Source of the DNA: a virus
Length of the DNA stretch: 64,000 nt
IMG/VR virus record: IMGVR_UViG_3300025030_000068
Span: 25,929-89,928 of that record
Reading direction: 5' to 3' (one strand)
Below the pieces are notes generated by a model. It was not told the origin of the DNA, ran no database searches, and saw nothing but the letters and a program-made list of their open reading frames with translations. The translations under genes and the position numbers were made by a program. Positions 22,254 to 44,136 of this stretch are shown piece after piece (position 1 is the first letter of the stretch; the number at the start of each line of letters is the position of its first letter).

Positions 22254-24652
22254 TTTTGCATTCACTCATCCTGAAAAACTTCAAGGGGCTTCTGGCTGGC
22301 GTCGGCTTGGCAGAGGTCACCATCGACTTCGACAAACTGCCAAACGGTCTTGTTGCCGTCGTCGGCAGCAACGGCATGGGCAAGACGACCCTGCTCGACA
22401 ACTTCCATCCCTTCCGGCTGATGCCCTACAAGCTCCGCAAGGCTGCCGGCTGGTCCCCGGCGGCGTTCTCTTACTACGACGAGTGCGTCGGCGAGGCCAA
22501 GAAGGAGCTGATCTTCTCGATCGGCGATGTCCGCTACAAGTCGGTTCTGCTGATCGATGCCGATCGCCGCAAGCAGGAGGCGACGTTGTATTGGTGGACT
22601 CCTGCCGCCGACTTTGTTGATGGCGGACCTGCATGGACTCCTCTTAACGACGGCAAGACCCGGACCTATGACGAGGCCGTCGAGAAGATCTGCGGCTCCC
22701 CTTCCCTCTTCTTCACCAGCGTCTTCCGGGCGCAGGGTGCCCGCAACCTCTCCGACTACACGCGCGGAGATATCATGTCTGTTGTCGCCGAGCTGCTCAA
22801 CATCGACCATATCAAGGAGCAGGGGGAGAAGGCCCGCAAGGTCGCCGCTGCTCTTGGTCTACAGGTCGATACCCTGCTCCGTGACAAGTCGGCGCTGTCC
22901 TGCGACGATCTTCCCCGACTGCAGGACGAGCTGCGGCAGGTCGTGGCTGAGGCCAGTGCATCCTCTGGCCACATCGTCGCCTACCGGGGCGATCTGGCCA
23001 CCATCGAAGCCAACCGCCGCGAGCTGGAGATTGCCAGCGCCGCCGAGGCTTCAACCCGGCAGCGCATTGCCGACAAGCAAAGCGTCCTGATGAAGTTGCG
23101 CGGCGAGCTGACTGCCGGGCACCTGCTGGCGCAGCGGGATACTCTTTCCTCCGATCTGAACGAGGTCAAGACCTCCCGTCCGCCGCTGTTGATCCGGCAC
23201 TCGACAGACCTCGACCGCCTGACGACAAAGTGCGCCGAGACCAAGAAGATTCTCGGCAATGAGGCCGCGATCCGTAATGGCTCTGCGGCGCTCCCGACGC
23301 GGCAGGCGGCGCTCGACGAAGCCCGTGTTTCGGTGCAGGCTGTCCGCGACCGTTATGCGGCCATTCGCGAGCAAGTGGCGGCACTATCGTCGCTGCCGGG
23401 AGAAATTGCCACAGCCGAGCGGCAGCTTGCCTCCCTCCAGCTCCGTGCTGCGGCCCTGGCGGGTCTGGACTGTACCGGCAGCGGTTCCGGGTGGATCAAC
23501 CAGTCCTGCCCGCTCCTGCGCGATGCGGTGGCGGCACAGGCCGAAATTGCACCGACGCAGGCGGCGATTGCCGGTTGCAAGGAGCGGTTGGTGGTGAAGG
23601 CCGATCTGGACGTGAAGCTGCTGGCATTGAAGACGACCGGGGAGAAGTTGGCTGCGGATGTGACGGCCTGCGAGGAGGCGCTGAAGTCCTGCCAGTATTA
23701 CGCCAACCTCTTGCCGCAGCTGGAGGGTGCCATCGTTCAATGCGCCGGCATCGAGGAGGAGATTGCCCGCCTCAAATCTGATCACGTGGCGGCGCTGGCA
23801 GATATTGACAGCCGGGTACTCGACCTGAACGATCGGCTCGGTCATCTCGAAACCGGGATCAACACGTTCCGGGGCGCGAAGGCACAGGAGGTCGCCGTTG
23901 TTGAAGAGGAGATTCGACAGCTGCGGGCTTCGGTCGGCGATGGTCTGGCCATCGAACTGTCCGGGCTGGACCAGAAGGCCGCCGAGGTGCGTTCGGTCAT
24001 TGAGCGGGCCGAGGCGGATCTTCGCCGGAAGCAGGAGGAGTCCGGGCGGGTGCAGGCTCGCATCGAGACGGCAGAGGCATCTGCTGCCAAGGTCGCCGAG
24101 ATCGACGGCAAGGTTGCGGCTCTGAATGAGGAGATCGCTAACTGGAACCTGCTGGTGAAAGCCTGTGGCAACAGCGGAATCGTGGCACTGGAAATCGACG
24201 AGTCGTCCTGCAACATCTCCTCACTCGCCAATGACTTGCTCCGCAACTGCTACGGGCCGCGTTTCTCGATTCGCTTTGAAACGCAGTCGGAGAAGCTGAA
24301 CGGCGAGTCCAAGGAGGATTTCGATATCACCGTCTTCGACTCGGAGACCGGAGAGCAGAAGTCGATCACCGATCTTTCAGGAGGTCAGACGACATGGGTG
24401 AATGACGCACTGACTCGTGCCATCTGCCTTTACAACATCCAGGCGTCCGGGCGGCCTTTTGGGACGTTGTTCAGTGATGAGCTTGACGGAGCACTGGATG
24501 CTGGCAAGAAAATTGAGTTCATGGCGGTGAAACGGCAGTCATTGGCGGTCGGTAGCCATACGCGGGAAATGTTTATTACTCAGGCTGCCGATCTGGTCGA
24601 TATGGCTGACGGCGTGATCCGGCTGCTGCCGGGGGAAGTGAGGGTGTCATGA
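22250..24652 (+). CDS. sbcC: Rad50/SbcC-like SMC ATPase
   Basis: GSNGMGKTT Walker A, Q-loop, coiled coils, LSGGQ signature, DELDGALD Walker B/D-loop. Confidence 0.9.
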   Translation: MILHSLILKNFKGLLAGVGLAEVTIDFDKLPNGLVAVVGSNGMGKTTLLDNFHPFRLMPYKLRKAAGWSPAAFSYYDECVGEAKKELIFSIGDVRYKSVLLIDADRRKQEATLYWWTPAADFVDGGPAWTPLNDGKTRTYDEAVEKICGSPSLFFTSVFRAQGARNLSDYTRGDIMSVVAELLNIDHIKEQGEKARKVAAALGLQVDTLLRDKSALSCDDLPRLQDELRQVVAEASASSGHIVAYRGDLATIEANRRELEIASAAEASTRQRIADKQSVLMKLRGELTAGHLLAQRDTLSSDLNEVKTSRPPLLIRHSTDLDRLTTKCAETKKILGNEAAIRNGSAALPTRQAALDEARVSVQAVRDRYAAIREQVAALSSLPGEIATAERQLASLQLRAAALAGLDCTGSGSGWINQSCPLLRDAVAAQAEIAPTQAAIAGCKERLVVKADLDVKLLALKTTGEKLAADVTACEEALKSCQYYANLLPQLEGAIVQCAGIEEEIARLKSDHVAALADIDSRVLDLNDRLGHLETGINTFRGAKAQEVAVVEEEIRQLRASVGDGLAIELSGLDQKAAEVRSVIERAEADLRRKQEESGRVQARIETAEASAAKVAEIDGKVAALNEEIANWNLLVKACGNSGIVALEIDESSCNISSLANDLLRNCYGPRFSIRFETQSEKLNGESKEDFDITVFDSETGEQKSITDLSGGQTTWVNDALTRAICLYNIQASGRPFGTLFSDELDGALDAGKKIEFMAVKRQSLAVGSHTREMFITQAADLVDMADGVIRLLPGEVRVS

Positions 24653-24800
24653 GGAGTCTGGAATTCTGCGTTCGCCAGTGCTCTCCGGTGCGGCACGGTA
24701 AGATTGACTTGGTGGAGGTGAACTGGCTGGCGTCGCTGGCCGGGACGTCGTGGCAGGAGGCGTTGCAGTCCGTCAGGCGGCGTTTCGGGAGGTAAAATGG

Positions 24801-24836
24801 AAAGGGGCGACCTTCGCAGGTCGTCCCTTTTTTTTA
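24801..24836. terminator. terminator between the convergent early and late operons
   Basis: AAAGGGGCGACCT-TCGC-AGGTCGTCCCTTTTTTTT. Confidence 0.8.
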
Positions 24837-25010
24837 TGGCGTTCGTCCGTCGCGGCAGAAGGCACAGCGACCGGCAATCAGTCGCGGCCTCGGCTCTCCG
24901 CAGTCGTTGCATTCTCCGGCAACTCCCGGTGGGATCGTGTAGCGGATGCTGTGGATCACAGCATCGTCCTTCAGCATCCGGAGGGCGACTATGTCTGCGT
25001 CATCGGCCAT
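24834..25010 (-). CDS. TraR/DksA-like C4 zinc-finger protein (58 aa, not in the ORF track)
   Basis: Manual translation MADDADIV...GECNDCGE...GRCAFCRD. Confidence 0.65.
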   Translation of the reverse strand: MADDADIVALRMLKDDAVIHSIRYTIPPGVAGECNDCGEPRPRLIAGRCAFCRDGRTP

Positions 25011-25086
25011 CTTCTTTCGTTATCTCCTTTGGTTGTCCTGTGCTCGCACTCGTTATCCGGTGCGCGGCTGTTCGGGCAGGTAGGCA

Positions 25087-25215
25087 TCACATCCCGCCTG
25101 AGCCTAAAAGACTACCGCCCTCAATGGTGATGACTGCCCCACTTCCCTGTGGTTGCTGCGGCACAGTCGTACAGGCACAAAGCGACAACAATAAGAGACC
25201 AATTAGCCAGCGCAT
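25087..25215 (-). CDS. small lipoprotein (42 aa, not in the ORF track)
   Basis: MRWLIGLLLLSLCAC lipobox; GGAG RBS. Confidence 0.55.
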   Translation of the reverse strand: MRWLIGLLLLSLCACTTVPQQPQGSGAVITIEGGSLLGSGGM

Positions 25216-25217
25216 GT

Positions 25218-25784
25218 TTAGTTGTCTCCGAGCGTAACGGAGTCAAAGGCAATGACCGCACCTTCAGCTGCGAACGCTTCCGTCGGGGAAATGATCTTAT
25301 GCATCAAACGAGCAATGCGGATAAAGCTGGTCGCTGCCCCTGCTGCCGGGAAGTCATAGGTCAGCGTGACAGCGGCAGGAGATACAGCTGCATGCTGCTG
25401 GACAAAGAGAATTTTATCGCCCTTGCTGGTGTTATAGACAACGCTGCACTCGCCGCCGGTAAAAGTAATCGTAGTGTTCACATCGTCGGGAAAGTCGAGT
25501 GTCCCGGTGGCGGTGTAGAGGGCGGCAGTCGGGGCAGCGAGGGTAAAGCCACCGGTCGTGTAACCGGCGCCTGAGACTTCGGTCGCTCCGGCGCTCCAGA
25601 CGGTCGAGGCGGTGCCGAATGTCGCGGTCGAGGTGTGTGTGGCGACCTTGTAGATGTCGGTTGGCAGGTGAACCCCGGCCAGCAGATCAGCCTTGGCCTG
25701 GTAGGGGATGCCCGTAGTACAGGCGGCGAACGCGCTCCCGGCGAGAAGGAGCAGGGCGAGGGTAAAACCGATAGTTTTTTTCAT
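25218..25784 (-). CDS. phage fibre-associated beta protein with Sec signal peptide
   Basis: MKKTIGFTLALLLLAGSAFA signal, then EVSGAGYTTGG...DF.D...YN...FIRIA motifs of a widespread phage family. Confidence 0.7.
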   Translation of the reverse strand: MKKTIGFTLALLLLAGSAFAACTTGIPYQAKADLLAGVHLPTDIYKVATHTSTATFGTASTVWSAGATEVSGAGYTTGGFTLAAPTAALYTATGTLDFPDDVNTTITFTGGECSVVYNTSKGDKILFVQQHAAVSPAAVTLTYDFPAAGAATSFIRIARLMHKIISPTEAFAAEGAVIAFDSVTLGDN

Positions 25785-25798
25785 GGTAAGTCTCCTTG

Positions 25799-28045
25799 TT
25801 ATTGGCCCCGTGGGGCGCGGATGATGATGTTGCCGTTGCGGTCGTTATGGGTGATAGGGTTGCCGAGGCGGTCAAGAGTGTTGGTAGCTATAAAATAATC
25901 AACAATGTTGTACGAAGCACCTGCAATGGATATTGTCGCCGCTACATCCTCCTCCCCCCATCCAGCGGGGAGAGACAACGGATTAGCTGTAATCATCCCA
26001 TCCAGCCTAACAGTGACCCCCATTAACCCCTCCAATACCCAGCGGATAAACTCGGCATCAGCACTCCATGTATAGGAACCATAGGTGGTTGTTTCGGGGT
26101 AGAACGAAATGCGGCCAGTTTCGGGCACATCAAACGGACAGACCCATGAGGCGTAGGAGCGGGCGGGGCTCCTCAGTCGTGCTTCTGTTTTTGCCCAGAT
26201 AAAGAATAACTCCGGCCACCCCTGTTCATAGTAGCCATTCCCAAACGCATCTGGAAGTGCTTGAATAGCGTTATAAGGCCCAGTGCGATAGCCATAAGTA
26301 TGGTCAAGAATGCTTATATCAGAGGACACTCCAGACTGAATCGCCCACGCCAATCCGTCGGGCTGCAAATCATCAATCGTAGAATTAACAAACGCACCAT
26401 TAACCCAAAAACGCCGATACAAATTATTCGTGGCGTCGAACCATTCTGAACTCTGCAAAATGGCTTTCACAGCATCGGCTCGACTGGTATAGGTGGCGGC
26501 CAGAGTCGGATTACCCTCGTGTGTCAGGATTTCCGCCATCCTTCGGCACGCCATGATGTAGCAGCACGATCCCTGAAACGCCTTCGAGTTTGGGGGCGTT
26601 GCTCCTGTCAACCACTCGCCTCCATAAACGTCATCCCAGTCATGGGTGCGAATCAAGCCACCATTACGGTTAGCATGGAGAAAATCGAGGGCGGCTAATG
26701 CGTGGTTGAGAATCGTTCTTGTTCCAGTGGTCTCTGCCAAAAAATCAAAATCTTGTGAATAGCAGAGGTAATTGTAGAGACACATCACAAACATCATCTC
26801 GTTGTAGGCGGATGAATAGTCGTGATAGCCAGAGGGGATCGAGTAAGAAACCTCGACCGCCATCTGCCCACTGGCGGATTGAATCTCCGATAGAGCGGCG
26901 ATCTCTGACTTAACTGGGGCATAATCCCCCAACATTAACAGCACATTTTGCATGGGATAGGACTGGTGGATTCTGTTGTGGATATATTCCCAGAAGCGAG
27001 CTCCCGAAACCGGATGATTGTGGATCTGTGGCCCCCCATGCCAAAAGGCCTTTTTCGTTGGGTCAAACCATTGGTGCGTCAGTGCCCCGTAGATATTGGC
27101 AATAGCGTAGCGCATGTAATCGTTGATTTTTTGGTTTGGAGTCTGTAGTGCCAGATTGTCAAACCAGCCGTCGATAGTGGCAATCTCCTCGGCATACCAT
27201 TGATCCAGCCCGTAGGTTTCCAACTCCTGCATTCCTGTAGTCAGTAAGGTTGCAGAATTAGTCACGTTTGCATAGACCACTCCGAAGAGCATGTAAGCGG
27301 TTGCCGTCTGGCCAGCGGGGATCGTTAAAGATACTTTGCCCGCAAAACAGGGGGCCGCGCCCGTATAAGATGAGGTATTAGACAAAGCCCCAGCTAAGGC
27401 GGAAGGGTTAGCATCGCCCCCTGCCCCAAAGAAGGTTGCCGCGTTAGTTTCCCACTCCGTCATGCCGGGGATGTAACACGTTTGGCGATGATCCATCGGA
27501 ACATCGAACGGTTCATCCTCAATGATAATTTCGTTGACGATGGTGCGGAGCGATGTCAAGAAATCCGTGCTTTTTGTCGCACTGGTTCCGAATAGTTCCA
27601 GGATCGGATAAAGGTTGATCTCCCGCTGAACCGTATCGTTATTTGTAATCGCCAGCCGTGAAACGACTATCGGTTTTTCCCGGTGGCAAATATCATTCTG
27701 TTCAAAATCCAGAGCACCGACCGTGAAACGGATTGCGGTTCTTTTCGGCTGATAAACACAGCGCCAGTTGGTCATAACTGCTGAATGTAGTGCGTGGTTG
27801 GTTGAGTAGGGATCGTTAGTGCCTTCCTTAATGTACCAACTTCGCCCCTGCAAAAACTCCCATGACACCCCCGCATCACTATTCGCCCCATCTGTCGATA
27901 GTTGGGAGACATCACCATGCGCGACCAGCCCCGCCGAACCGTTAGAATGCGGGTGATACATAAAATAGGGATTACCAAGGGGAAAGTCCGGCCACGCAGC
28001 CGAGTCCTCCCAAACTAATCCATGTTCAGCGGCGTCAAAAATCAT
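25799..28045 (-). CDS. GH94-like glycoside phosphorylase/hydrolase
   Basis: Beta-sandwich N-terminus, L.LQTPN...NDY linker, DFDFL, HDWDD (cf. GH94 DWND), WVLEGLMGV...P.LPAGW. Confidence 0.7.
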   Translation of the reverse strand: MIFDAAEHGLVWEDSAAWPDFPLGNPYFMYHPHSNGSAGLVAHGDVSQLSTDGANSDAGVSWEFLQGRSWYIKEGTNDPYSTNHALHSAVMTNWRCVYQPKRTAIRFTVGALDFEQNDICHREKPIVVSRLAITNNDTVQREINLYPILELFGTSATKSTDFLTSLRTIVNEIIIEDEPFDVPMDHRQTCYIPGMTEWETNAATFFGAGGDANPSALAGALSNTSSYTGAAPCFAGKVSLTIPAGQTATAYMLFGVVYANVTNSATLLTTGMQELETYGLDQWYAEEIATIDGWFDNLALQTPNQKINDYMRYAIANIYGALTHQWFDPTKKAFWHGGPQIHNHPVSGARFWEYIHNRIHQSYPMQNVLLMLGDYAPVKSEIAALSEIQSASGQMAVEVSYSIPSGYHDYSSAYNEMMFVMCLYNYLCYSQDFDFLAETTGTRTILNHALAALDFLHANRNGGLIRTHDWDDVYGGEWLTGATPPNSKAFQGSCCYIMACRRMAEILTHEGNPTLAATYTSRADAVKAILQSSEWFDATNNLYRRFWVNGAFVNSTIDDLQPDGLAWAIQSGVSSDISILDHTYGYRTGPYNAIQALPDAFGNGYYEQGWPELFFIWAKTEARLRSPARSYASWVCPFDVPETGRISFYPETTTYGSYTWSADAEFIRWVLEGLMGVTVRLDGMITANPLSLPAGWGEEDVAATISIAGASYNIVDYFIATNTLDRLGNPITHNDRNGNIIIRAPRGQ

Positions 28046-31000
28046 GGCAACGCCTCCACAAGAACATTGTTAATTAGCGTCGTAGGAGTAATGCTGCTGG
28101 TATCTGTAAGGAAAAGGTAGCTAAAGTCTGTGTAAGTGGCATCGTTGTACGTTATAACTGTCGTTCCGCCTATTTTTCCGATGAGGTCTCCGTTATCGTG
28201 CAATTCAAACCGGATAACACGGTTGGCAGATGATTGTGTTATTGCCTGAGACGCAACGATTGTCCCATTTTTCAGAATCAAGGCCATTCCGAAAGGCGTA
28301 AGTTCTATGTCAATTTCATTTGAAAATGCCAGACCATAACTGCCTGTTGCACCGTGCGTACTACTACTCCCCACACCAATTTCTGTACTGGTCCAATCAT
28401 CTTCTCCCGTTGCAAGGGGCATCTGTAAATCAATCTCAACTGCAAATCCCCGCACCATTGCCGTCGGGGTTCGCACCGCCTCTCCAATAGCGTTGAAGAG
28501 CAGCTTACTGCTCGAAATTGATGGTGATCCGGTCGATGTCCAAGGGGCCGGGACGGCACCATCCGAATAAGTGAAGAGGTCGACGAATGAGTTAGCCCCA
28601 ACTGCCGTCACTCCCAGCGTCCCATACGCCGAAGTCATCGACTGACTAGCAATCGTGATCGTCGCCGCTCCTGCCGGTGCGCTAACTGCCAAGCCCCCAT
28701 AACTGGAGGTCATCGACTGTGCATCCAGCGTAATAGTCACCGGCCCGCCTGCGGCCAAAACGCCAATAGCGCCATAGGCCGAAACCATCTCCTGCGCGGT
28801 CATACCGATGGTCTGTGGGCCTGCCGGTGCTGAGGGAGCAAAGCCGCCATAGGCCAGCGTCATCGACTGCCCGCTCATACTGATTGTCGGGCCGAGGGAC
28901 AGCCAGCCTGCACCGCACTCGATGTTGCTGTCGTTGATGCCGATGCTGTCGAGGTAGGTGTTGACAGAGTTGTACTGAACATGGAGCTCATCACAGATAG
29001 CGCTATCACCGCGTGCTGGCAACGTCCCACCCCAGGCAATCCATTGCTCGATGGAGATGGAGAGGAGTGGCTGTTTGCTTGATGCCAGGTCGTAGACCGC
29101 TTTCACCGCCGCGCTGTTGGCCGCCGTGGTCGAGCTGTCAGAATTGGTCGCGCTGGATAACTCCGACTCTTTGATGATGGCGGCGTCGGCGGATTCGGCA
29201 CCGATCGTGCCGGGAGTCAGTGCAGCAATGGCGCCACTGGCTATGGGGTCGGACTCCTCTTGTAACACGGCCTGCCACCCCGTTTCCGTAGCAGTTTTTC
29301 GCGTGCTGGTTGTCGTATCAAAGACCGTGGTTCCCTTTTGTATCTCGGTGTGGGCTGGCAAGGCCGCAGTAGTAAAGAATGCGTCTGTCATACCATACCC
29401 GACTGTCACGGCCCCACGGCGATGGATCAATCCGGCATCGATACCGTTGACTATCCCCATGTAGTAAAATTTGCAGCGCCTTGCATCGGCATGGCCGTAA
29501 CCGTAATTGATCCTGACGCGCAGTTCGAGCTTACGAGTTGCTACGGCATCAGTTAAAAAGGATAGGTTAATAAACTCGGCTTGACCACTTGGCATGACAT
29601 TATACTGAGTATCAGCCGCCGCCCATGTCTGCGAGTCCCAATCATAATATTGATTATTAACCGCGTCTCTCAACTGTATCTGCAAAAAGACGCTCGGTGG
29701 GACTTTTAGGGCGACTTGAGCATAGAGCGTGCTGTTAATTGGCACTGCTGCTGCCGACCCATACGCAGTGATTCCGTTTGTTTCGACCCCATCCGGTATA
29801 AATTCAACGTGGCAGCTTTTATTCTTGGCTGCGACGTGAGAGACGGCAGGATTAAAAAGGTTTCCAGTTGGGTACGAGACTGTAGACACTGCCCCCTCAA
29901 TAATCGTTACGGCGGCAGGGTTAGAATCATCGAGATAATTGACCCTCGCCGTATCAGTACTGACAGGCAAATCCCCCCATACCTTGATCTGTGTTCTAAT
30001 AATATTCCGGCCGTCATTGTCAATGACAGTTTTGCGAGATTCCGCGTTTGACGGATCAGTATAGTGGCTGCCAGTTGACAATAAAATCGTATTACCCTGA
30101 TTCCCGACATCAATCACTGTCTGACCATAGACTCCGGTCATGTCGATTATGTTTGAGTGAGATTCCTGCCGCCCTGCTCCTGAAGTGAGGTCCTTAGTAA
30201 TATGGAAAACAGGTGCGGAATTATTTGTCGGGTCAGTCCCTCCGAAAATTTTAACGCCGCAAATCCCACTCAGTTCTAGTCCGGGATTACTCCCCTCGTA
30301 ATATCCACCGTAGACGCGGATTGACGGGGAAAAATAGGCTTGGGCGCGAGATGTCCCGCCGTCGCTACCGCCGCGCAATAGAATGCCGCCGAGGTCATTT
30401 CCCTCAGCCCATGGAGAGAATAAATCTGCACCGATAACGCGACTCAGTTCAAGCCCCCTCCCCACATTAAAGTAGGCCTTAATTCTTCTGAGATCGATTT
30501 GCTGTGACGACTGAAACAGGAAACCCGTACCGCCACTGAATGACGCAACCACGCTGTCATAAGTATTGCCCCACCCAGAAAGCTCAACGAGTGCCGAAGT
30601 TCCTGGGTTGAGCTGTGCGCCGCCCCACGAAGCGGGCGGGTTATTTCCGTTAAATCTTACGCCACGGATTCCGGCTGAGTATTGCGTTGAGTCATATAAA
30701 AGCCGAGTATTCTCACCCGACGCCAACTTGAATTCGCTGACTGTTTCGTCGCCATAAATCCACACGTTATTTAAGGCTGAGAATCCTGCGACTTCACCAC
30801 CGAACATCGTTGTTACGTAGACACCAGGATCGACATAAAGCGGATTTTTACTGGATGCGCCATAGTTCCACCACGCCTTAATCGCTTCAAAATTTGACAC
30901 CTTGTCAGTATCTAAGCCAGTGCCTTTGGCTCCGAACCAACGCAAATGGACAGTCCCAGAATAATCGCGCAACCACCTCACCGAGCCATCCCCGCCAGTC

Positions 31001-31797
31001 GACACAAGGATTGTTCCGTTGTTGTCAACGAAAGTGCCAGTGTCTTTACGGAAGTTACCACCTCCACCATCTCCCGCCGTGGTATGCCCTTCGACGTAAA
31101 CCACCGTAGCCGAGCCGGTGTAATCGCGCAGGGCTTGGATGCTGGCAACGTGGGGGACAAGAGCTGGAAGGTTGGCTTTTTCGTCGGCGGTAGGAAACCG
31201 GGCATCATCAAACGCTGCAACCGTATCACCGATGGATTCTGGCTGCAGAGCCGTGGCCGCCAGGGCAATATTGGTCTGCTCCGTAGTGGTCGTGCCATGC
31301 TGGACCGTGGATGCGTGGGAAGAAATCGCCCCGGCGACGGAGGGATCGGTCTCGGCTTGCAGCGCCGTATCCGCTGTTGCTCCCTGGGCGGCGGTGGCGA
31401 AATCAACAGGATCAAAGCTGGCAGCGGGGGAGGCGGCAAAGATCGGATCAGCTTCCACCTCAATGCCTACCGGACCTTCTTGATCGGTTCCGCATGTAAA
31501 GTTTCCGGTGGCAGTGTCAAAGGCGATCACTTTATCCGTGCCGGTGCAGGTGACCGAGTTGACGACCGTCCCGGCACCCCCTAGCGCCGCTTCCAGCCCA
31601 TCGATGTCCGCGATGGCATGCCCGTGCCCCAGCAGCGAGAAGTAGGTCGTCAGCTGGAGGCCATACATGACGCCGGCCCGGTCCACAAGCACCTCATCGG
31701 TCGACTGCAGCGGTCCGGGAATCGGAGTGTACAGGCTGGCGCTGGCGGTGGCCGCCCAGAACAGGATAGTGATCAATAATCGCAGGGTACTCCTCAT
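28042..31797 (-). CDS. mosaic tailspike/fibre protein with pectate-lyase-like beta-helix and Sec signal peptide
   Basis: MRSTLRLLITILFWAATASA signal; GDGGGG.F, WFGAKG, LYVDPGVY; SSATNSDSSTTAANSAAVKAVYD fibre repeat. Confidence 0.75.
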   Translation of the reverse strand: MRSTLRLLITILFWAATASASLYTPIPGPLQSTDEVLVDRAGVMYGLQLTTYFSLLGHGHAIADIDGLEAALGGAGTVVNSVTCTGTDKVIAFDTATGNFTCGTDQEGPVGIEVEADPIFAASPAASFDPVDFATAAQGATADTALQAETDPSVAGAISSHASTVQHGTTTTEQTNIALAATALQPESIGDTVAAFDDARFPTADEKANLPALVPHVASIQALRDYTGSATVVYVEGHTTAGDGGGGNFRKDTGTFVDNNGTILVSTGGDGSVRWLRDYSGTVHLRWFGAKGTGLDTDKVSNFEAIKAWWNYGASSKNPLYVDPGVYVTTMFGGEVAGFSALNNVWIYGDETVSEFKLASGENTRLLYDSTQYSAGIRGVRFNGNNPPASWGGAQLNPGTSALVELSGWGNTYDSVVASFSGGTGFLFQSSQQIDLRRIKAYFNVGRGLELSRVIGADLFSPWAEGNDLGGILLRGGSDGGTSRAQAYFSPSIRVYGGYYEGSNPGLELSGICGVKIFGGTDPTNNSAPVFHITKDLTSGAGRQESHSNIIDMTGVYGQTVIDVGNQGNTILLSTGSHYTDPSNAESRKTVIDNDGRNIIRTQIKVWGDLPVSTDTARVNYLDDSNPAAVTIIEGAVSTVSYPTGNLFNPAVSHVAAKNKSCHVEFIPDGVETNGITAYGSAAAVPINSTLYAQVALKVPPSVFLQIQLRDAVNNQYYDWDSQTWAAADTQYNVMPSGQAEFINLSFLTDAVATRKLELRVRINYGYGHADARRCKFYYMGIVNGIDAGLIHRRGAVTVGYGMTDAFFTTAALPAHTEIQKGTTVFDTTTSTRKTATETGWQAVLQEESDPIASGAIAALTPGTIGAESADAAIIKESELSSATNSDSSTTAANSAAVKAVYDLASSKQPLLSISIEQWIAWGGTLPARGDSAICDELHVQYNSVNTYLDSIGINDSNIECGAGWLSLGPTISMSGQSMTLAYGGFAPSAPAGPQTIGMTAQEMVSAYGAIGVLAAGGPVTITLDAQSMTSSYGGLAVSAPAGAATITIASQSMTSAYGTLGVTAVGANSFVDLFTYSDGAVPAPWTSTGSPSISSSKLLFNAIGEAVRTPTAMVRGFAVEIDLQMPLATGEDDWTSTEIGVGSSSTHGATGSYGLAFSNEIDIELTPFGMALILKNGTIVASQAITQSSANRVIRFELHDNGDLIGKIGGTTVITYNDATYTDFSYLFLTDTSSITPTTLINNVLVEALP

Positions 31798-32777
31798 GCC
31801 CAGGTTCCTCTCATGATTTCAACGAGCCAAATGTTGTCGTTCAGCCCGGTTAATTTCAGCATGACGCCGGCAGCGGCAATACTTGTCAGGGTGATGCCGA
31901 TGGCCGACAGCGTGCCGTTCTGCAGGAGTAGTCGGTCGTCACCGGATAGTTGCACCGAGACGGCATTGTTCGACAGTCCGACGTAAATGTGGCTGATGCC
32001 GACCGCGCAGGCAGGGACGACGAATGCTTGCGCTCCGGTGGCGGTATGCACCGTTGAGCTGCCAATAGCGAGATCGCCGCTGCCGAGCAGGCTCTGGCCG
32101 TTGATGGTTTTGATGTTGGTACCGGAGACTAACGCGGGCTGCATAAGGACGAGCTGGTCGACGAAGTCCTCGGCACTGACCGCGCCGACGTCCGCCGCCG
32201 TCAGGGTGACGATGCCAACCTGCCCATTGACGCTGCCGACCGCGCCGCCCTCGACCAGGATACCGTCGATGGCCGCCGTGATATCCTCGGTGGTCGCGAG
32301 ATTGTCGGGCAGGCTCTGGATGACCGGGTTCCCGTCGTAGTAGAGAAGTCCGCCGACAATCGCGAATTTATCAAGAATGATGGTATGTTGGAGGATGTGC
32401 TGTTGGAACGCTGTGAGTTCCTGCGTCGTCAGTTCTCCGCCTCCCGCGCGAAAATCAAACCACTTGACCGGGCTGAGGTCGCCGCTATTCAGATTGGCGG
32501 CAAAGGACGGCTGCCCCATGATGCTGCAGAGGTATTGCCGTCCTCCTTCGCCGCGATCTGTTGGCCACAGGGACAGCGAGAATTCCCCTGATATGTTCGT
32601 GTAGACTGTATGCCGCCGGCTGACCACTTTTTCTTGGCTGATCAAATCAAAGGAGTCGGTGGGGATGAATCCCTTAACCAGACAGAACTCGATCTTCGCG
32701 CCGACAATCAGGTTGCCCGCCGAGTCGACGAGCGGTTGCCCGGCATTATTGATCTCGCGTGTGATAAGCGGTGGCAT
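31794..32777 (-). CDS. tail fibre-like protein
   Basis: GSVNGQVGIVTL and LVSGTNIKTINGQSLLGSGDL fibre motifs. Confidence 0.7.
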   Translation of the reverse strand: MPPLITREINNAGQPLVDSAGNLIVGAKIEFCLVKGFIPTDSFDLISQEKVVSRRHTVYTNISGEFSLSLWPTDRGEGGRQYLCSIMGQPSFAANLNSGDLSPVKWFDFRAGGGELTTQELTAFQQHILQHTIILDKFAIVGGLLYYDGNPVIQSLPDNLATTEDITAAIDGILVEGGAVGSVNGQVGIVTLTAADVGAVSAEDFVDQLVLMQPALVSGTNIKTINGQSLLGSGDLAIGSSTVHTATGAQAFVVPACAVGISHIYVGLSNNAVSVQLSGDDRLLLQNGTLSAIGITLTSIAAAGVMLKLTGLNDNIWLVEIMRGTWA

Positions 32778-32809
32778 AGGTTATCCCTTGCTGTGGCGGT
32801 TAGACGTTG

Positions 32810-33106
32810 TTACTTCGTCGAGTCCTTGATCTTCTGGACGGCCATTTCAATGGCCGCATTGACAAGGCTGGTGCCGACGTTGACTCCAACAATAATTCCC
32901 TGTTTCTGCAGGTCTCTGGTGATGAGTTGCAGGGCTGCGTCCCGCTTCTCGCTGGAACTGGCACCGCTGTAGTTTGCGGCAACGATCTTGACAGCAGCCA
33001 GTGCGGCCTTGGCAAGAATCGGCCCTGCGTCACGCGCCATCTGGCGCAGGAAGGGGAGGCAGAAATCGAAAATGCTGGTCATGGCAAGCTTCATTTTTTC
33101 CCACAT
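32810..33106 (-). CDS. holin-like/lysis-cassette protein
   Basis: SSEKRDAA...VNAAIEMAV motif seen in LL-H-type holins; within the lysis cluster. Confidence 0.5.
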   Translation of the reverse strand: MWEKMKLAMTSIFDFCLPFLRQMARDAGPILAKAALAAVKIVAANYSGASSSEKRDAALQLITRDLQKQGIIVGVNVGTSLVNAAIEMAVQKIKDSTK

Positions 33107-33203
33107 GGCTTGAGTCTCCTTTTGAGTTTGTTGAGTATTTTTAGCAGCCAGACGTCAATGTTCAGCCGCCATGTGTGGCTGATGCGGAGCGGGTTGCGTG
33201 GTA

Positions 33204-33455
33204 TCACGGTGCGGTGGCCTTGACCGCCTCGGTGTTCTTGTCGATCTTGCGTCCGATGCCGATCATGCCCAGGCCCCCCGAGATTGACAGCACGCACTGC
33301 TCGATGCTCATGGAAAGGTCGACGGGGACCATATCCGGCCAGGCAATACGGACGAAGCCCACGAGGCCGAGCATGATCAGGGCGACGCCTGCGACTTTCG
33401 TCCGGTAGCTCTCCGGGACATATTTGCCGACAAACTGTAAAATTTTCTCTTTCAT
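33204..33455 (-). CDS. holin (2 TM)
   Basis: Two TM helices, basic C-terminus; follows the endolysin; GGAGG RBS. Confidence 0.7.
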   Translation of the reverse strand: MKEKILQFVGKYVPESYRTKVAGVALIMLGLVGFVRIAWPDMVPVDLSMSIEQCVLSISGGLGMIGIGRKIDKNTEAVKATAP

Positions 33456-33465
33456 GTGGCCTCCC

Positions 33466-33987
33466 TTAAATTCTGACGTAGCAAACAACAGCACCGGGTG
33501 AAGTCCTGCGCTTCTCCCAGACACCATCTCCTGTGGTGCTCTCTCGATCCCCGGCTCCATTGGTATTCCCTTCAACTGTCGTAATGTGGTCGAAGCACAT
33601 GTGCTGGTCAGCGACTACGATGCCGATGTGCCCGCCTCCTTGCTGTGCTCCGTTGAAGTCGAAGATCACGAAGTCGCCGGCCTTGGCCAGTTCGGTCTTG
33701 GCGATGATCTCGCAGCCGTTCTTGCGGCCCCACGTCTCCCATCCAAATGCGCTGGCGTCTTGGCAGCGGGATAATTTGATCTCTGGGAAGAATGCGAGGG
33801 CTTCCCGGAGTACCCAGCAGCACAGCGCAGCACACCAAGGCCATGAAGCCGGCGCCAGCCATGTCGCCATCATGTACTGACGGATCTGGGCGCCGTTGTT
33901 GTTGCCGCCGACTTCGCGAGTTCCGACTTGCGACAACGCGATCTCGACGATCTTGGCACGGAGTTGCTGCTTTTGTTCGGGCGTCAT
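33466..33987 (-). CDS. CHAP-domain endolysin
   Basis: WPWCAA (Cys), GHIGIV (His), TVEGNT. Confidence 0.9.
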   Translation of the reverse strand: MTPEQKQQLRAKIVEIALSQVGTREVGGNNNGAQIRQYMMATWLAPASWPWCAALCCWVLREALAFFPEIKLSRCQDASAFGWETWGRKNGCEIIAKTELAKAGDFVIFDFNGAQQGGGHIGIVVADQHMCFDHITTVEGNTNGAGDRESTTGDGVWEKRRTSPGAVVCYVRI

Positions 33988-34051
33988 GGCTTCTTACCTC
34001 TTGCGTCCTCGTGGCGCTGCGTTGACATAGGGAACACTCCGGCCACAAACT

Positions 34052-34663
34052 TTACCAGCCGGTCTCGATGTCGTAGGCGTCGATAGTCTCGATGGTTCCG
34101 AGTGCCTCAATGGCTTCGGCATGTGCCCGCTCGGCGGTGAAGTGCGCCTGCACATGGCTACTGACGGCTGCGGCAATCTGCATAACCATCGGTGCGCCGA
34201 TCTTGATCCAGCCGTCAGCGCCCTTGAAGTCAATCTGTCGTGTCGGATCAATCTGCACTGCGACGTAGGCACCTGTAATCATCGCTTGGCTGGCACGGTC
34301 CGTCATGATCGTAGCCGGTCCAATGATGAGCCCTGCAGTCTCACGCTGGTAGCGGGCTGCGGCCAGAGCGGCGAGCTTATCTTCTTTGGCGCTGGCCAGT
34401 GTCCGGGCTGGCGGCTCCTCGTTGTAGGGCCGAGCTTGCCCGTGGAATTTTATGGAGCGACCCTTGCTCTGCCATTCCATCAAAGACTGGTACTCCTCCT
34501 CGGAGAGTTCTTTGGCATCGAGTGGGATCAGACAGTTGGGATTTGGAACCATGTATCTGTCAACGACGGCTCCTTCTCCATCGGTGTCGACCTGCTCTAT
34601 TTCCCGTTCGCCGTGAATGGTGGTATCGAAAAAACCCGATTTTGTCGCTGAGAAGTATTTCAT
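34052..34663 (-). CDS. tail fibre assembly protein (DUF4376-like)
   Basis: MKYFS...GFFD..IHG; RYQRETAG...TDR.SQ...F.AE. Confidence 0.8.
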   Translation of the reverse strand: MKYFSATKSGFFDTTIHGEREIEQVDTDGEGAVVDRYMVPNPNCLIPLDAKELSEEEYQSLMEWQSKGRSIKFHGQARPYNEEPPARTLASAKEDKLAALAAARYQRETAGLIIGPATIMTDRASQAMITGAYVAVQIDPTRQIDFKGADGWIKIGAPMVMQIAAAVSSHVQAHFTAERAHAEAIEALGTIETIDAYDIETGW

Positions 34664-34674
34664 GGCTGACTCCT

Positions 34675-35379
34675 TTAAACTCCAATCGCAATAAAATCGA
34701 GGACTTTTCCAGCGTCAGCAGCTGTCCACGTAAAATAGGAAGGTGCTTTGCCGGTAATTGTGTGCGTATGGGGAGGATAATTCCCGCCGTTTGTTTGTGT
34801 CGCAACGACGGCTAGGCAGGCACTGGGAAATGCGGTAGGGAAATAAGTGGTCCCACTACTCGTTGATCCCCACTGGATCATAAATCCTTGCGGTGTCTTA
34901 AAATATCCGTTGTAAGTGAGATAATGAGCGAAGGCGTTAATGTGGTTGGTGGCATTGGTGGCAGAACCAACCACCATCGCCGCTCTGGATGCCAGAAAAC
35001 CGTTGCCGTTGGAATCCGCACCCCACAAGTATGTCGGGTTATTGTGCGAATTTGCCCAACTGAAATGCTGCCCGTCGACTGTATCCGCATTGCCGGCACT
35101 GGTTGCCGATGTCGCGTTGCCGCTCAATGCTGCGGTGATGACCCTTGTGGAAAAGTCTCCGTTGGCATCGCGCAGAACCAGCCGGCTTCCGACGTTTGAA
35201 GCGGTCGCGCTGTGGGGATTGGTCAGCGCCGCATGTACGGCAGCCGCAAGTTTGTTGAACTCCGTGCGGTTGGCGAGGATCTGCATCAGTTCTTCGAGGA
35301 TGGCCTGATTCAGCTCGTCGCCGTCAATGATGGACTTGACGGGTGAAGTGAATTCATTGACGGGTGTCAGGTTCTTCAT
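34675..35379 (-). CDS. short tail fibre protein
   Basis: LANRT, GNATSAT, NADTVDG; C-terminal GF.IQWG...FPTAFP...IAIG. Confidence 0.8.
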   Translation of the reverse strand: MKNLTPVNEFTSPVKSIIDGDELNQAILEELMQILANRTEFNKLAAAVHAALTNPHSATASNVGSRLVLRDANGDFSTRVITAALSGNATSATSAGNADTVDGQHFSWANSHNNPTYLWGADSNGNGFLASRAAMVVGSATNATNHINAFAHYLTYNGYFKTPQGFMIQWGSTSSGTTYFPTAFPSACLAVVATQTNGGNYPPHTHTITGKAPSYFTWTAADAGKVLDFIAIGV

Positions 35380-43746: not shown

Positions 43747-44136
43747 ATGCGTTTATTGTGTGTTCTTTGTGCGTTTCTTCTGACTGTTGCTATTGCTTGT
43801 GCCGGCGAGCCGGGGAAATACATTTATCAGGGGGGGACGACAGATTCTGGCCCTGTTGCGGTTCGGACTTCGAGCCAAGAATTTGAGTATTTTTGGTACA
43901 TGAGTGGTGGTCGCTATGTCGCGGCGGCTTTTCATTCCCCCAACCATCTTGCAATCCTCCTGTCTGACTCCTCCGGAGAATCCGGCGATACTGAATTTTA
44001 TTTTGACGGGAAGACCAAGGAGGTGACTTTCCTCGATCCGGCGAACGGCGAGAGGGTTGTCTATCTTTCTCCCGGCTCCTCTGGTTATGAAATGGCGACA
44101 TCCATTTGGCGACACGCTGGTTTCCTGAGTAACTAG
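43747..44136 (+). CDS. secreted hypothetical protein (moron)
   Basis: Signal peptide MRLLCVLCAFLLTVAIACA; GGAGG RBS; antisense to the tail operon. Confidence 0.7.
   Translation: MRLLCVLCAFLLTVAIACAGEPGKYIYQGGTTDSGPVAVRTSSQEFEYFWYMSGGRYVAAAFHSPNHLAILLSDSSGESGDTEFYFDGKTKEVTFLDPANGERVVYLSPGSSGYEMATSIWRHAGFLSN

What the first reader, a model, noticed from the sequence alone, without database searches (positions are those of the whole stretch)
25087..31797. Tail-fibre-type proteins with Sec signal peptides: a possible exported appendage module
Seen: downstream of the lysis genes and separate from the normal fibre/chaperone pair (34052-35379), the 1251-aa tailspike-like protein and the 188-aa fibre-family protein both start with canonical signal peptides (ASA and AFA cleavage sites). 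Both have paired Cys, and a small lipoprotein follows. Known: tailed virions assemble in the cytoplasm. Inference: these subunits fold in the periplasm and join virions at lysis, or are displayed or secreted by the lysogen as adhesin, depolymerase or receptor decoy.
Basis: partly seen in the sequence, partly recalled or inferred. Interest (0 to 1): 0.8.

Follow-up and report, generated by a model that had tools for sequence, protein, structure and literature searches.

The report
Phage tailspike and fibre proteins with export signals
An uncultured 90-kb contractile-tailed groundwater phage ends its late operon with a tailspike-type sugar-cutting protein and a small fibre-fold protein that both carry genuine-looking bacterial export signals, so they very probably fold outside the cytoplasm where the virus particle is built; what they do there is not settled.

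Summary
The 1251-aa protein (28042-31797, minus strand) starts with a textbook Sec leader. The rest is a tail-fibre-type N-terminal part, a right-handed beta-helix sugar-active domain (44% identical to a leaderless prophage tailspike) and a fibre repeat. Divergent homologues carry their own leaders and keep a cysteine pair.

The 188-aa protein (25218-25784) has a fold seen in small phage fibre and baseplate proteins. About 80 inspected homologues have no leader. Only this clade gained a leader, a C-terminal tail and two cysteines. A 42-aa lipoprotein ORF follows.

A close relative (baseplate protein 86% identical) has a leaderless 719-aa fibre in the same slot after the lysis genes. That fibre shares only the first 150 residues of the window's 327-aa protein, and none of the export-signal genes are present. 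So these genes are swappable cargo of a variable second-fibre slot.

Export is well supported (about 0.8). I slightly favour action on the infected cell's envelope (0.4) over joining the particle at lysis (0.3).

This scan has noted export signals on phage fibres on much other DNA before. I found no paper describing it. No trained predictor or experiment was available.

The parts
34675..35379 (-). Ordinary leaderless tail fibre (234 aa) in the P2-like baseplate order J-I-(164 aa)-fibre-assembly protein
   Evidence: Pfam Gp53-like_C E 7.8e-12 and PHROG tail fibre families. Its N-terminus is shared with the 403-aa fibre of the close relative L095.
34052..34663 (-). Fibre assembly-type protein (203 aa, DUF4376)
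   Evidence: Pfam DUF4376 E 4.4e-20. PHROG phrog_10508 and phrog_188 (tail fibre / tail fibre assembly).
32810..33987 (-). Lysis genes. CHAP endolysin at 33466-33987 with no leader. Two-span membrane protein at 33204-33575 (likely start near 33455). Holin-like 98-aa protein at 32810-33106.
   Evidence: Pfam CHAP E 1.7e-7; PHROG endolysin families to E 1e-13; a weak Holin_LLH match. No spanin pair was found.
31794..32777 (-). Leaderless 327-aa fibre-like protein. Its first ~150 residues are the conserved anchor of this phage lineage's second-fibre slot. Its stop codon overlaps the start of the 1251-aa gene.
   Evidence: 54% identity, E 4e-52, to residues 2-157 of the 719-aa fibre at the same place in relative L095; the rest is unrelated. 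ATGA overlap. No Pfam, PDB or cultured-phage match.
31738..31797 (-). Sec-type signal peptide of the 1251-aa protein (residues 1-20, predicted cut ASA|SLY)
   Evidence: The n, h and c regions were read from the sequence. Homologues P0018, P0036, P0011 and the L083 fibre have different leaders of the same shape. Not run through a trained predictor.
31153..31737 (-). Fibre-type N-terminal part of the 1251-aa protein (residues 21-215), with the conserved block TCTGTDK..GNF.CG.D (C84/C102)
   Evidence: Aligned with P0018 (invariant columns). The same block occurs in the leader-bearing fibre of L083. GC3 is 0.67, nearer to the phage's own genes than the distal parts are.
29272..31152 (-). Right-handed beta-helix carbohydrate-active domain (residues 216-842): the tailspike body
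   Evidence: 50% and 46% identity to P0008 and P0009. P0009 is the leaderless tailspike of a Cyclobacterium lianum prophage, next to tape-measure and tail genes. A profile of 18 homologues hits mannuronan C5-epimerase beta-helices in the PDB at E 6e-15 to 5e-13, and a pectate lyase. GC3 is 0.52, which looks foreign.
28045..29271 (-). Distal part of the 1251-aa protein: Phage_fiber_2 repeat (residues 880-909), a Cys-pair module (C935/C961), four ~24-aa repeats, and a C-terminal ~175-aa domain
   Evidence: Pfam Phage_fiber_2 at 29.7 bits against a cut-off of 22. Homologues P0011, P0018, P0036 and P0109 cover this part.
25799..28045 (-). 748-aa GH94-like glycoside hydrolase/phosphorylase-fold protein with no leader. 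Its start overlaps the stop of the 1251-aa gene.
   Evidence: Pfam GH94 supersandwich E 1.1e-14. Atlas structural neighbours are GH94 cellobiose-phosphorylase-like proteins, TM 0.8 over the full length. GC3 is 0.55.
25218..25784 (-). 188-aa small fibre-fold protein with a leader (residues 1-21; SPase I AFA|A or lipobox FAA|C22) and a clade-specific C-terminal tail (~160-188)
   Evidence: phrog_644, matched from residue 21 on. Homologues P0003-5 keep the leader; P0006/7, the Roseobacter phage homologues and ~80 IMG/VR homologues have none. AlphaFold2 pLDDT is 72. Best structural matches: KP1 baseplate chain Z 10.7, GP4 fiber I gp80 Z 7.8, Bxb1 tail tip Z 7.7.
25087..25215 (-). 42-aa lipoprotein ORF (lipobox LSLCA|C15). 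It looks like a leader joined to the C-terminal tail of a 188-aa-type gene.
   Evidence: Lipobox pattern match. GGAGA lies 9 nt upstream. Its last 16 residues match the C-termini of P0003-5 and resemble the tail of the 188-aa protein. DNA repeats D1 and D6 are weak. No homologue of the ORF as such is known; its expression is unproven.
24794..25010 (-). Operon end: 58-aa four-cysteine zinc-ribbon ORF (24834-25010), then a GC-rich hairpin and T-rich tract
   Evidence: Read from the sequence. No Pfam match for the 58-aa ORF. The consensus scan did not list the hairpin. In L087 a Pfam-confirmed dksA/traR zinc finger occupies a similar place beside the lysis genes.

Best explanation
SHOWN BY SEQUENCE
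- The last genes of the late operon sit in a variable second-fibre slot after the lysis genes.
- That slot encodes a 1251-aa tailspike-type protein with a Sec/signal-peptidase-I leader, a 188-aa small fibre-fold protein, and a 42-aa peptide. The leaders of the last two fit the lipoprotein (signal peptidase II) pattern.

INFERRED
- Late in infection the host Sec machinery moves these products across the inner membrane.
- The tailspike trimer folds in the periplasm and its two conserved local cysteine pairs can oxidise there.
- The two small products become lipid-anchored in an envelope membrane.
- I judge it most likely that they work on the infected cell's own envelope rather than being built into the particle. 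The beta-helix domain would bind or cut an acidic surface or export-pathway polysaccharide. The lipid-anchored fibre-fold domain would bind a surface component.
- Together they would destroy or mask the phage's receptor, ease release, and keep progeny or rival phages from adsorbing to the dying cell.
- This would make them polysaccharide-directed counterparts of the receptor-blocking lipoproteins T5 Llp and Cor, made from recycled virion-fibre parts.
For: EXPORT
- Canonical leaders with firm starts.
- Leader function, though not sequence, is kept in homologues 30-80% identical.
- The 188-aa clade added a leader exactly in front of residue 1 of a family that is otherwise leaderless.
- No twin-arginine motif, so Sec rather than Tat.

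ACCESSORY RATHER THAN CORE PART
- The baseplate module already holds a complete leaderless fibre plus assembly protein in the usual place.
- A relative with an 86% identical baseplate protein lacks every one of these genes. In the same slot it carries a leaderless 719-aa fibre.
- The 188-aa and 42-aa products fit the lipobox, so they should stay membrane-bound.
- The beta-helix and GH94-like genes have foreign GC3, 0.52-0.55 against 0.76-0.83 for core virion genes.

ENZYME TYPE
- The profile matches beta-helix polyuronate-active enzymes.

RECURRENCE BESIDE LYSIS GENES
- Leader-bearing beta-helix and fibre-like genes lie beside endolysin genes in other phage contigs: L083, L087, L088, L089, L094.

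PRECEDENTS FOR EXPORTED TAILSPIKE-FOLD OR FIBRE-LIKE PROTEINS
- Pantoea WceF (PMC7949094) and Bdellovibrio MAT fibres (PMC10769870).
Against: - No experiment and no trained signal-peptide predictor were used.
- The 1251-aa protein keeps a full fibre build (N-terminal fibre part, shaft repeats, distal domain), which a periplasmic enzyme would not obviously need.
- Its gene is translationally coupled to the 327-aa protein that carries the lineage's leaderless anchor. That arrangement looks like a partner pair.
- The cleavage sites leave mature ends that line up with the first residues of leaderless virion homologues.
- Sec alone does not take a large trimer across an outer membrane, so action at the cell surface would need a further step or lysis.
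- The host and its envelope type are unknown.
- The 748-aa enzyme and the 327-aa protein in the same block have no leader.
Confidence: 0.4

Rival explanations
1. Periplasm-matured particle parts. The 1251-aa tailspike, and perhaps the 188-aa protein if it is cut at AFA|A, is exported, cleaved and disulfide-bonded. When the holin opens the inner membrane it docks on the particle, most plausibly onto the 327-aa leaderless anchor protein. The second fibre would then be a split fibre whose outer half is made outside the cytoplasm.
For: - The 327-aa gene carries the conserved anchor of the slot and is shorter than the 719-aa fibre of the relative. Its stop overlaps the start of the 1251-aa gene.
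- The SP plus N-terminal part of the 1251-aa gene has near-resident GC3 while the distal parts look swapped in, as in receptor-binding protein module exchange.
- In other phage contigs leaders sit directly in front of canonical fibre N-termini, for example L089 9506-10441.
- Tailspikes and fibres are known to add to finished particles in vitro (P22, T4; my own knowledge).
- Earlier notes of this scan report phages in which all fibres carry leaders (not checked by me).
Against: - The phage already has a normal fibre.
- The relative manages without these genes.
- A lipid anchor on the 188-aa product would keep it off the particle.
- No docking interaction is shown.
- No report of such a route was found in five literature searches.
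Confidence: 0.3
2. Lysogen-displayed appendage. The prophage gives its host an exported fibre/adhesin or depolymerase set, working like the surface-displayed MAT fibres of Bdellovibrio.
For: - Same build as MAT fibres: a leader, then an N-terminal domain, then a phage-fibre-like body with a variable tip.
- Other agents' notes call this phage temperate (not checked by me).
- The genes lie at the operon end, where phage 'moron' genes often sit.
Against: - There is no intergenic room and no promoter-like site ahead of 32777 or 31797.
- Overlapping stops and starts tie the genes to the late operon.
- No outer-membrane secretion or anchoring component is encoded nearby.
- Homology of the N-domain to the MAT N-domain was not tested.
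Confidence: 0.1
3. The hydrophobic N-termini are not working export signals in the real host. They could be assembly or membrane-contact segments of cytoplasmic virion proteins, or they could be ignored late in infection.
For: Only rule-based recognition was used. Tailed-phage assembly is cytoplasmic in every studied case.
Against: - Four divergent fibre homologues keep the n/h/c layout and small residues at -3 and -1 while the sequence itself drifts.
- The h-regions are 12-14 residues, too short for a membrane span.
- The 188-aa family functions without any such segment in hundreds of phages.
- Cysteines co-appear with the leader in the 188-aa clade.
Confidence: 0.1

Closest known systems
Leaderless phage tailspikes / depolymerase fibres, e.g. 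the 667-aa tailspike of a Cyclobacterium lianum prophage (P0009, locus L084)
   Same: The beta-helix body is homologous: 44% identity over residues 249-842. In L084 it lies in a tail module next to tape-measure and tail genes. The profile places the domain among right-handed beta-helix carbohydrate-active enzymes.
   Different: Those proteins start directly with a docking N-terminus and have no leader. The window protein adds a Sec leader, a different N-terminal fibre part with a Cys pair, and a long distal extension.
Bdellovibrio bacteriovorus MAT (mosaic adhesive trimer) fibres (Caulton et al. 2024, PMC10769870)
   Same: A signal peptide, then an N-terminal domain, then a long phage-fibre-like body with swappable tips. 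They are exported and displayed.
   Different: MAT fibres are cell-encoded, not in a phage late operon. Homology of the N-domains was not tested. No S74 chaperone-protease domain was found here.
Pantoea stewartii WceF (and related exported tailspike-fold exopolysaccharide enzymes) (PMC7949094)
   Same: A trimeric tailspike-like beta-helix enzyme that is sent out of the cytoplasm and acts on the cell's own exopolysaccharide.
   Different: WceF uses a Tat signal, is chromosomal within an exopolysaccharide gene cluster, and has no fibre shaft or distal domain. In the fold search run with the 188-aa model, the WceF chain scored only Z 2.9; the tailspike body itself was not modelled.
Receptor-blocking phage lipoproteins: T5 Llp and Cor of phi80/N15/T1 (my own knowledge)
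   Same: Small lipoproteins encoded next to receptor-binding protein genes. They are made by the phage, act in the envelope, and protect against superinfection and loss of progeny.
   Different: There is no sequence relation. The 188-aa protein has a virion fibre-type fold, and no target is known.
Sec-exported and SAR endolysins and spanins (review PMC6116005)
   Same: Phage late proteins that use the host Sec system and wait in the envelope until lysis. The genes lie beside the lysis cassette.
   Different: Those are peptidoglycan or outer-membrane lysis proteins. The window's own endolysin has no leader, and the exported proteins here are of fibre/tailspike type.
Ralstonia podophage GP4 fiber I (gp80, PDB 8jou) and similar small tail/baseplate proteins
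   Same: The 188-aa core (residues 23-160) superposes on gp80 at Z 7.8, with 113 of 136 residues aligned. It also superposes on a KP1 baseplate chain at Z 10.7. The Atlas feature search also pointed to Gp80.
   Different: Pfam gave no sequence-level match. Those proteins have no leader, no lipobox and no C-terminal tail.

Membership tests
Sec-type signal peptide cut by signal peptidase I (1251-aa protein) | Positively charged n-region, a 7-15-residue hydrophobic h-region, and small residues at -3 and -1 | tested here: met
   The n-region MRSTLR holds two Arg. The h-region is 12-13 residues. The c-region reads A-S-A|S. The test was rule-based only.
Sec-type signal peptide cut by signal peptidase I (1251-aa protein) | The leader is really translated: start codon supported and leader conserved in relatives | tested here: met
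   The ATG overlaps the upstream stop and GAGAGGA lies 8 nt upstream. P0018 shares M1, R2, S3, W14, A18 and A20. P0036, P0011 and the L083 fibre have their own leaders.
Sec-type signal peptide cut by signal peptidase I (1251-aa protein) | Call by a trained predictor, and cleavage or export shown by experiment | not testable with these tools
   No SignalP or LipoP was available. The organism is uncultured.
Bacterial lipoprotein signal (188-aa and 42-aa products) | Lipobox of the PROSITE PS51257 type, with the Cys at positions 15-35 after an uncharged stretch and K/R near the N-terminus | tested here: met
   A regular-expression scan of the whole genome picks out 25218-25784 (..SAFAA|C22) and 25087-25215 (..LSLCA|C15). 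It also picks out 43747-44136. For the 188-aa protein an SPase I site AFA|A is equally possible.
Phage tailspike / beta-helix depolymerase | Right-handed parallel beta-helix carbohydrate-active domain | tested here: met
   A profile of 18 homologues hits mannuronan C5-epimerase beta-helices (8xfq, 8ja4, 2pyg; E 6e-15 to 5e-13) and pectate lyase 5olp. The domain was not modelled in 3D here.
Phage tailspike / beta-helix depolymerase | Homologues are encoded in phage tail modules | tested here: met
   P0009 in the Cyclobacterium lianum prophage follows tape-measure and tail genes.
Phage tailspike / beta-helix depolymerase | Presence on the virion | not testable with these tools
   No isolate and no virion proteome exist.
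Pfam Phage_fiber_2 (PF03406) | Score above the gathering cut-off | tested here: met
   29.7 bits against a cut-off of 22, residues 880-909.
GP4 gp80-like small fibre proteins (Pfam PF23140) for the 188-aa protein | Sequence match to the family model | tested here: not met
   Pfam returned no family at E <= 0.01. Only phrog_644, of unknown function, matched.
GP4 gp80-like small fibre proteins (Pfam PF23140) for the 188-aa protein | Shared fold | tested here: inconclusive
   VIA-align gives Z 7.8, rmsd 3.4, with 113 of 136 residues aligned. Foldseek E is only 0.21. The tool warns that Z near 8 is borderline.
Bdellovibrio MAT fibre family | The conserved ~130-aa beta-rich N-domain right after the signal peptide | not tested
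   No MAT sequence was at hand by reference. Only the overall build is alike.
Two-component spanin (o-spanin reading of the 42-aa ORF) | An outer-membrane lipoprotein gene embedded in, overlapping or next to an inner-membrane spanin gene in the lysis cassette | tested here: not met
   No type II membrane protein gene adjoins 25087-25215. The ORF lies 7.6 kb from the holin-like gene.
Tat signal | Twin-arginine motif in the n-region | tested here: not met
   The n-regions are MRSTLR and MKKT, with no RR.

The most novel reading that the evidence does not exclude
The outer half of this phage's second tail fibre is made outside the cytoplasm. The 1251-aa tailspike would be Sec-exported, cleaved and disulfide-bonded in the periplasm. 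It would then be captured by the particle-borne 327-aa anchor protein in the interval between holin triggering and outer-membrane rupture. Part of a tailed virion would thus be assembled across two compartments.
Probability: 0.27. Interest if true: 0.85.

Novelty: new variant of a known kind. Interest (0 to 1): 0.6.

Why it matters
Textbook tailed-phage assembly takes place entirely in the cytoplasm. Exported phage proteins are known only as lysis proteins, small exclusion lipoproteins and conversion factors.

Here, virion-type host-recognition proteins carry export signals. Other environmental phage contigs show the same. This points to one of two things:
- an undescribed class of receptor-destroying or receptor-masking accessory proteins made from fibre parts; or
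- a two-compartment assembly route.

Either reading bears on how host range, superinfection exclusion and release evolve. It also bears on how depolymerase genes in metagenomes should be annotated.

This window adds three concrete handles:
- a leader gained by one clade of a large leaderless family;
- a close relative that lacks the module in the same slot;
- an anchor/tailspike gene pair that can be tested for binding.

Tried and rejected
SEARCHES THAT FOUND NOTHING
- No match of the region, the 1251-aa protein or the 327-aa protein in 50,697 cultured phage records.
- Word-indexed protein searches found only the 1251-aa protein itself.
- IMG/VR scans with the 1251-aa protein, the 748-aa protein, P0018 and P0036 found nothing.
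- A genome scan with the 188-aa alignment found nothing.
- No NCBIfam hit.
- PDB sequence searches with single proteins and with the 4-sequence profile were empty.
- No look-alike stretch in other windows of this scan.

The L083 record is not held.

WEAK OR FAILED ANALYSES
- The first AlphaFold2 run, with 6 sequences, was poor (pLDDT 47).
- Foldseek against the PDB gave no match at E <= 0.001.
- Sequencing runs: only the groundwater metagenomes that may be the source. No RNA holder is listed.
- Five literature searches found no report of Sec leaders on phage fibres or tailspikes. Matrishin 2023 reports leaders on other Porphyromonas phage genes only.

READINGS REJECTED
- The 42-aa ORF as an o-spanin: no partner gene.
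- Tat export: no RR motif.
- A downstream true start for the 188-aa gene: no start codon lies inside the leader.
- The 58-aa ORF as a Pfam TraR/DksA member: no match.

NOT TESTED
- The host. A Geobacter-like host is named only in another agent's note.

Full report
WHAT THE WINDOW IS

The window is bases 25929-89928 of a single 89,928-bp contig. The contig encodes a contractile-tailed phage. PHROG matches include a tail sheath (E 5e-54), a major head protein (E 6e-53) and a baseplate wedge/J-like protein. The head protein is only about 26% identical to SPO1-type phages, and no cultured phage matches at the DNA level. The only sequencing runs that hold the stretch are groundwater metagenomes of one study.

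THE GENES (minus strand)

The baseplate module follows the P2-like order:
- J-like protein, 366 aa
- I-like protein, 336 aa
- a 164-aa protein
- a 234-aa fibre (Pfam Gp53-like_C)
- a 203-aa DUF4376 assembly-type protein

After these come a CHAP endolysin without a leader, a membrane protein and a holin-like protein. The flagged block follows:
- 327 aa (31794-32777)
- 1251 aa (28042-31797)
- 748 aa (25799-28045)
- 188 aa (25218-25784)
- 42 aa (25087-25215)
- a 58-aa four-cysteine ORF, then a hairpin with a T-rich tract

Beyond that lies a convergent SbcC-like gene. The stops and starts of the 327-aa/1251-aa and 1251-aa/748-aa gene pairs overlap as ATGA. The other gaps are 2-14 nt and contain Shine-Dalgarno sequences. 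The consensus scan found no promoter-like site ahead of the block. I therefore read the block as the tail end of the late operon. That is an inference.

CHECK OF THE SIGNAL PEPTIDES

The 1251-aa protein begins MRSTLR, then a 12-13-residue hydrophobic stretch, then A-S-A|S. The 188-aa protein begins MKK, then a hydrophobic stretch ending AGSAFA|AC. Both starts have good ribosome-binding sites. The 188-aa leader contains no alternative start codon.

A rule-based scan of 136 crude ORFs of the genome flagged only these two. Conservation is the stronger argument:
- The 1251-aa N-terminus aligns with P0018 (771 aa), sharing M1, R2, S3, W14, A18, A20 and the block TCTGTDK..GNF.CG.D with its two cysteines.
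- P0036 and P0011 have quite different leaders of the same shape, ending ASA|A and CQA|A.
- The 649-aa fibre of metagenome contig L083 also has such a leader, and it carries the same Cys block.
- For the 188-aa protein, three homologues at 76-82% identity keep the leader, with substitutions in the n-region.

There is no twin-arginine motif. No trained predictor was available.

The 188-aa leader also satisfies the lipoprotein pattern (..S-A-F-A-A-C22). The 42-aa ORF satisfies it too (L-S-L-C-A-C15), and in both the Cys is followed by TT. The pattern picks out only one other plausible ORF in the genome.

WHAT THE 1251-aa PROTEIN IS

An exhaustive HMMER search showed a mosaic:
- Residues ~215-842 match many proteins. 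The best are P0008 and P0009, at 50% and 46% identity.
- Residues 890-1200 match P0011, P0018 and P0036.
- The first 110 residues match essentially only P0018.

P0009 is the 667-aa leaderless tailspike of a Cyclobacterium lianum prophage. It lies directly after tape-measure and tail genes, and an integrase-type gene is nearby.

A profile of 18 homologues of the central part hits right-handed beta-helix polyuronate-active enzymes in the PDB. These are mannuronan C5-epimerases at E 6e-15 to 5e-13, plus a pectate lyase. Pfam finds a Phage_fiber_2 repeat above its cut-off. The label 'tailspike-like' therefore holds.

The protein has seven cysteines. C84/C102 and C935/C961 are local pairs conserved in homologues. 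One leaderless homologue (P0090) also has the second pair.

GC3 is uneven across the gene: 0.67 for the leader plus N-terminal part, 0.52 for the beta-helix and 0.59 for the distal part. Core virion genes have 0.76-0.83. The body thus looks imported onto a more resident front end.

WHAT THE 188-aa PROTEIN IS

It belongs to phrog_644, a family of unknown function. The match starts at residue 21, just after the leader.

IMG/VR holds more than 400 relatives. I read the best 80. They are 131-147 aa long and start with M(A/S)..T.T.SFK..L..GVH, and nearly all have an in-frame stop a few codons upstream. None has a leader. They lie in virion modules:
- between portal and head protein in L005;
- after the coat protein in the Roseobacter phages CRP-603 and CRP-345.

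With a 48-sequence alignment, AlphaFold2 gave pLDDT 72. The model has a confident beta-sandwich core at residues 23-160, and the leader and the last 30 residues are disordered. The best structural matches are all phage tail parts:
- Klebsiella phage KP1 baseplate chain, Z 10.7
- GP4 fiber I gp80, Z 7.8, 113 of 136 residues aligned
- Bxb1 tail tip, Z 7.7
- HFTV1 tail
- 7-7-1 tail fibres

Foldseek alone was not significant, and Pfam's Gp80 model did not match.

So one clade of a common small virion-type protein gained a leader placed exactly in front of residue 1, a C-terminal tail and two cysteines.

THE 42-aa ORF

Its leader resembles the 188-aa leader around the Cys. Its last 16 residues match the C-termini of P0003-5 and resemble the tail of the 188-aa protein. 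It looks like a tandem copy that lost its body. The DNA repeats are weak. Whether the ORF is expressed is unknown.

THE 748-aa PROTEIN

It has no leader. It is a full-length GH94-like fold, with a Pfam supersandwich match at E 1e-14 and Atlas TM 0.8.

THE SLOT, SEEN THROUGH A CLOSE RELATIVE

IMG/VR contig L095 has a baseplate J protein 86% identical to the window's. Its gene order is the same:
- J and I proteins
- a fibre (403 aa, same N-terminus as the window's fibre, different tip)
- an assembly protein
- an endolysin of a different type (M15)
- a membrane protein
- an 80-aa lipoprotein
- a 719-aa leaderless protein

Residues 2-157 of the 719-aa protein are 54% identical to the window's 327-aa protein (E 4e-52). 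The rest is unrelated, and nothing in it resembles the 1251-aa protein. Five leaderless genes follow, and the sequence then rejoins the window near 24650.

From this I conclude:
- The position after the lysis genes is a second-fibre slot with a conserved leaderless anchor and freely exchanged contents.
- The leader-bearing genes and the GH94-like gene are cargo specific to the window phage.

RECURRENCE ELSEWHERE

- L083 is a 90.6-kb contig with a tail protein and an endolysin. Between them lie seven consecutive genes with leaders or a lipobox.
- L085-L089 were fetched through an unrelated C-terminal domain and have GC 40-56%. Each carries two to four adjacent leader-bearing large ORFs, some with Pfam Beta_helix. 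In L087, L088 and L089 these lie 0.2-3 kb from a Pfam-confirmed endolysin.
- In L089 a leader sits directly in front of the canonical fibre start ADVKISELP.
- L094 has an endolysin 49% identical to the window's, with a leader-bearing ORF on each side.
- In my heuristic, 15 of 355 ORFs of 300 aa or more in all held loci were flagged, and most of these lie in such modules.

Earlier notes of this scan report the same kind of thing on much other DNA. Those notes are leads, not evidence.

WHAT IS IN PRINT

- Sec-exported and SAR endolysins and spanins (PMC6116005).
- Leaders on capsid, spanin and unknown genes of Porphyromonas phages (PMC10367356).
- The Tat-exported tailspike-fold enzyme WceF (PMC7949094).
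- The leader-bearing, surface-displayed phage-fibre-like MAT proteins of Bdellovibrio (PMC10769870).

Five searches found no report of Sec leaders on phage-encoded fibres or tailspikes.

HOW IT MOST LIKELY WORKS

Shown by sequence: canonical leaders that are conserved in function, on proteins of virion-fibre ancestry, in the late operon.

Inferred with about 0.8 confidence: Sec export, followed by signal peptidase I cleavage for the tailspike and probably lipidation for the two small products.

What happens after export is open.

I give 0.4 to action on the infected cell's envelope, meaning receptor polysaccharide cutting or masking that aids release and exclusion. The reasons:
- the phage already has an ordinary fibre set;
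- the relative lacks the module;
- the small products look lipid-anchored;
- the enzyme bodies are foreign in composition.

I give 0.3 to a split second fibre whose outer half matures in the periplasm and docks on the 327-aa anchor at lysis. The reasons:
- the anchor gene is shortened and translationally coupled to the tailspike gene;
- the tailspike keeps a full fibre build;
- the cleavage sites reproduce the N-termini of leaderless virion homologues.

Display by the lysogen and non-functional leaders get 0.1 each.

VERDICT

This is a new variant of known kinds (exported phage accessory proteins; exported tailspike-fold proteins of bacteria). It is not unique to this window. Interest is moderate to high (0.6).

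The decisive tests are export fusions, a binding test between the 327-aa and 1251-aa proteins, and virion proteomics in a cultured relative.

Noticed in passing
window 43747-44136 (+): A 129-aa ORF with a clean lipoprotein leader (MRLLCVLCAFLLTVAIA|C). It lies on the opposite strand, between two minus-strand tail genes. No Pfam match. It looks like an inserted accessory ('moron') gene.
   Followed up: partly
window 25799-28045 (-): A full-length GH94-like (cellobiose-phosphorylase-fold) enzyme without a leader sits between the two exported proteins. Its start overlaps the tailspike gene's stop. It is an unusual gene for a phage fibre locus and its role is unknown.
   Followed up: partly
window 25087-25260 (-) and proteins P0003-P0005: The 42-aa lipoprotein ORF ends with the same ~16-residue tail (..VITIEG..L.S.GGM) that ends the 191-192-aa homologues of the 188-aa protein. 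It looks like a leader joined to the tail of a lost tandem copy.
   Followed up: partly
L095:2960-11400 compared with window 24650-35379: Two phages have baseplate J proteins 86% identical. Yet everything from the fibre tip to the operon end differs between them: fibre tip, endolysin type (M15 versus CHAP), holin region, and the second fibre and its partners. This is one long hypervariable stretch.
   Followed up: partly
L083:9299-18068: Seven consecutive genes with signal peptides or a lipobox lie between tail genes and the lysis cassette of another ~90-kb phage contig. They include a 649-aa fibre carrying the same TCTGTDK Cys block as the window's tailspike.
   Followed up: partly
L086:14527-14991: A 154-aa ORF with a leader followed by a staphylococcal-nuclease-like motif lies at the end of a leader-bearing fibre module. 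This was judged by eye only and was not searched.
   Followed up: no
window 24989-25090 (-): A 33-aa ORF with three cysteines starts in the ATGTGATG overlap at the end of the 42-aa ORF. There is no evidence that it is a gene.
   Followed up: no
window 28042-31797, protein record P0001: The precomputed domain list for this protein names PF27114.1, a Pfam family newer than the local Pfam copy. I could not see which part of the protein it covers.
   Followed up: no
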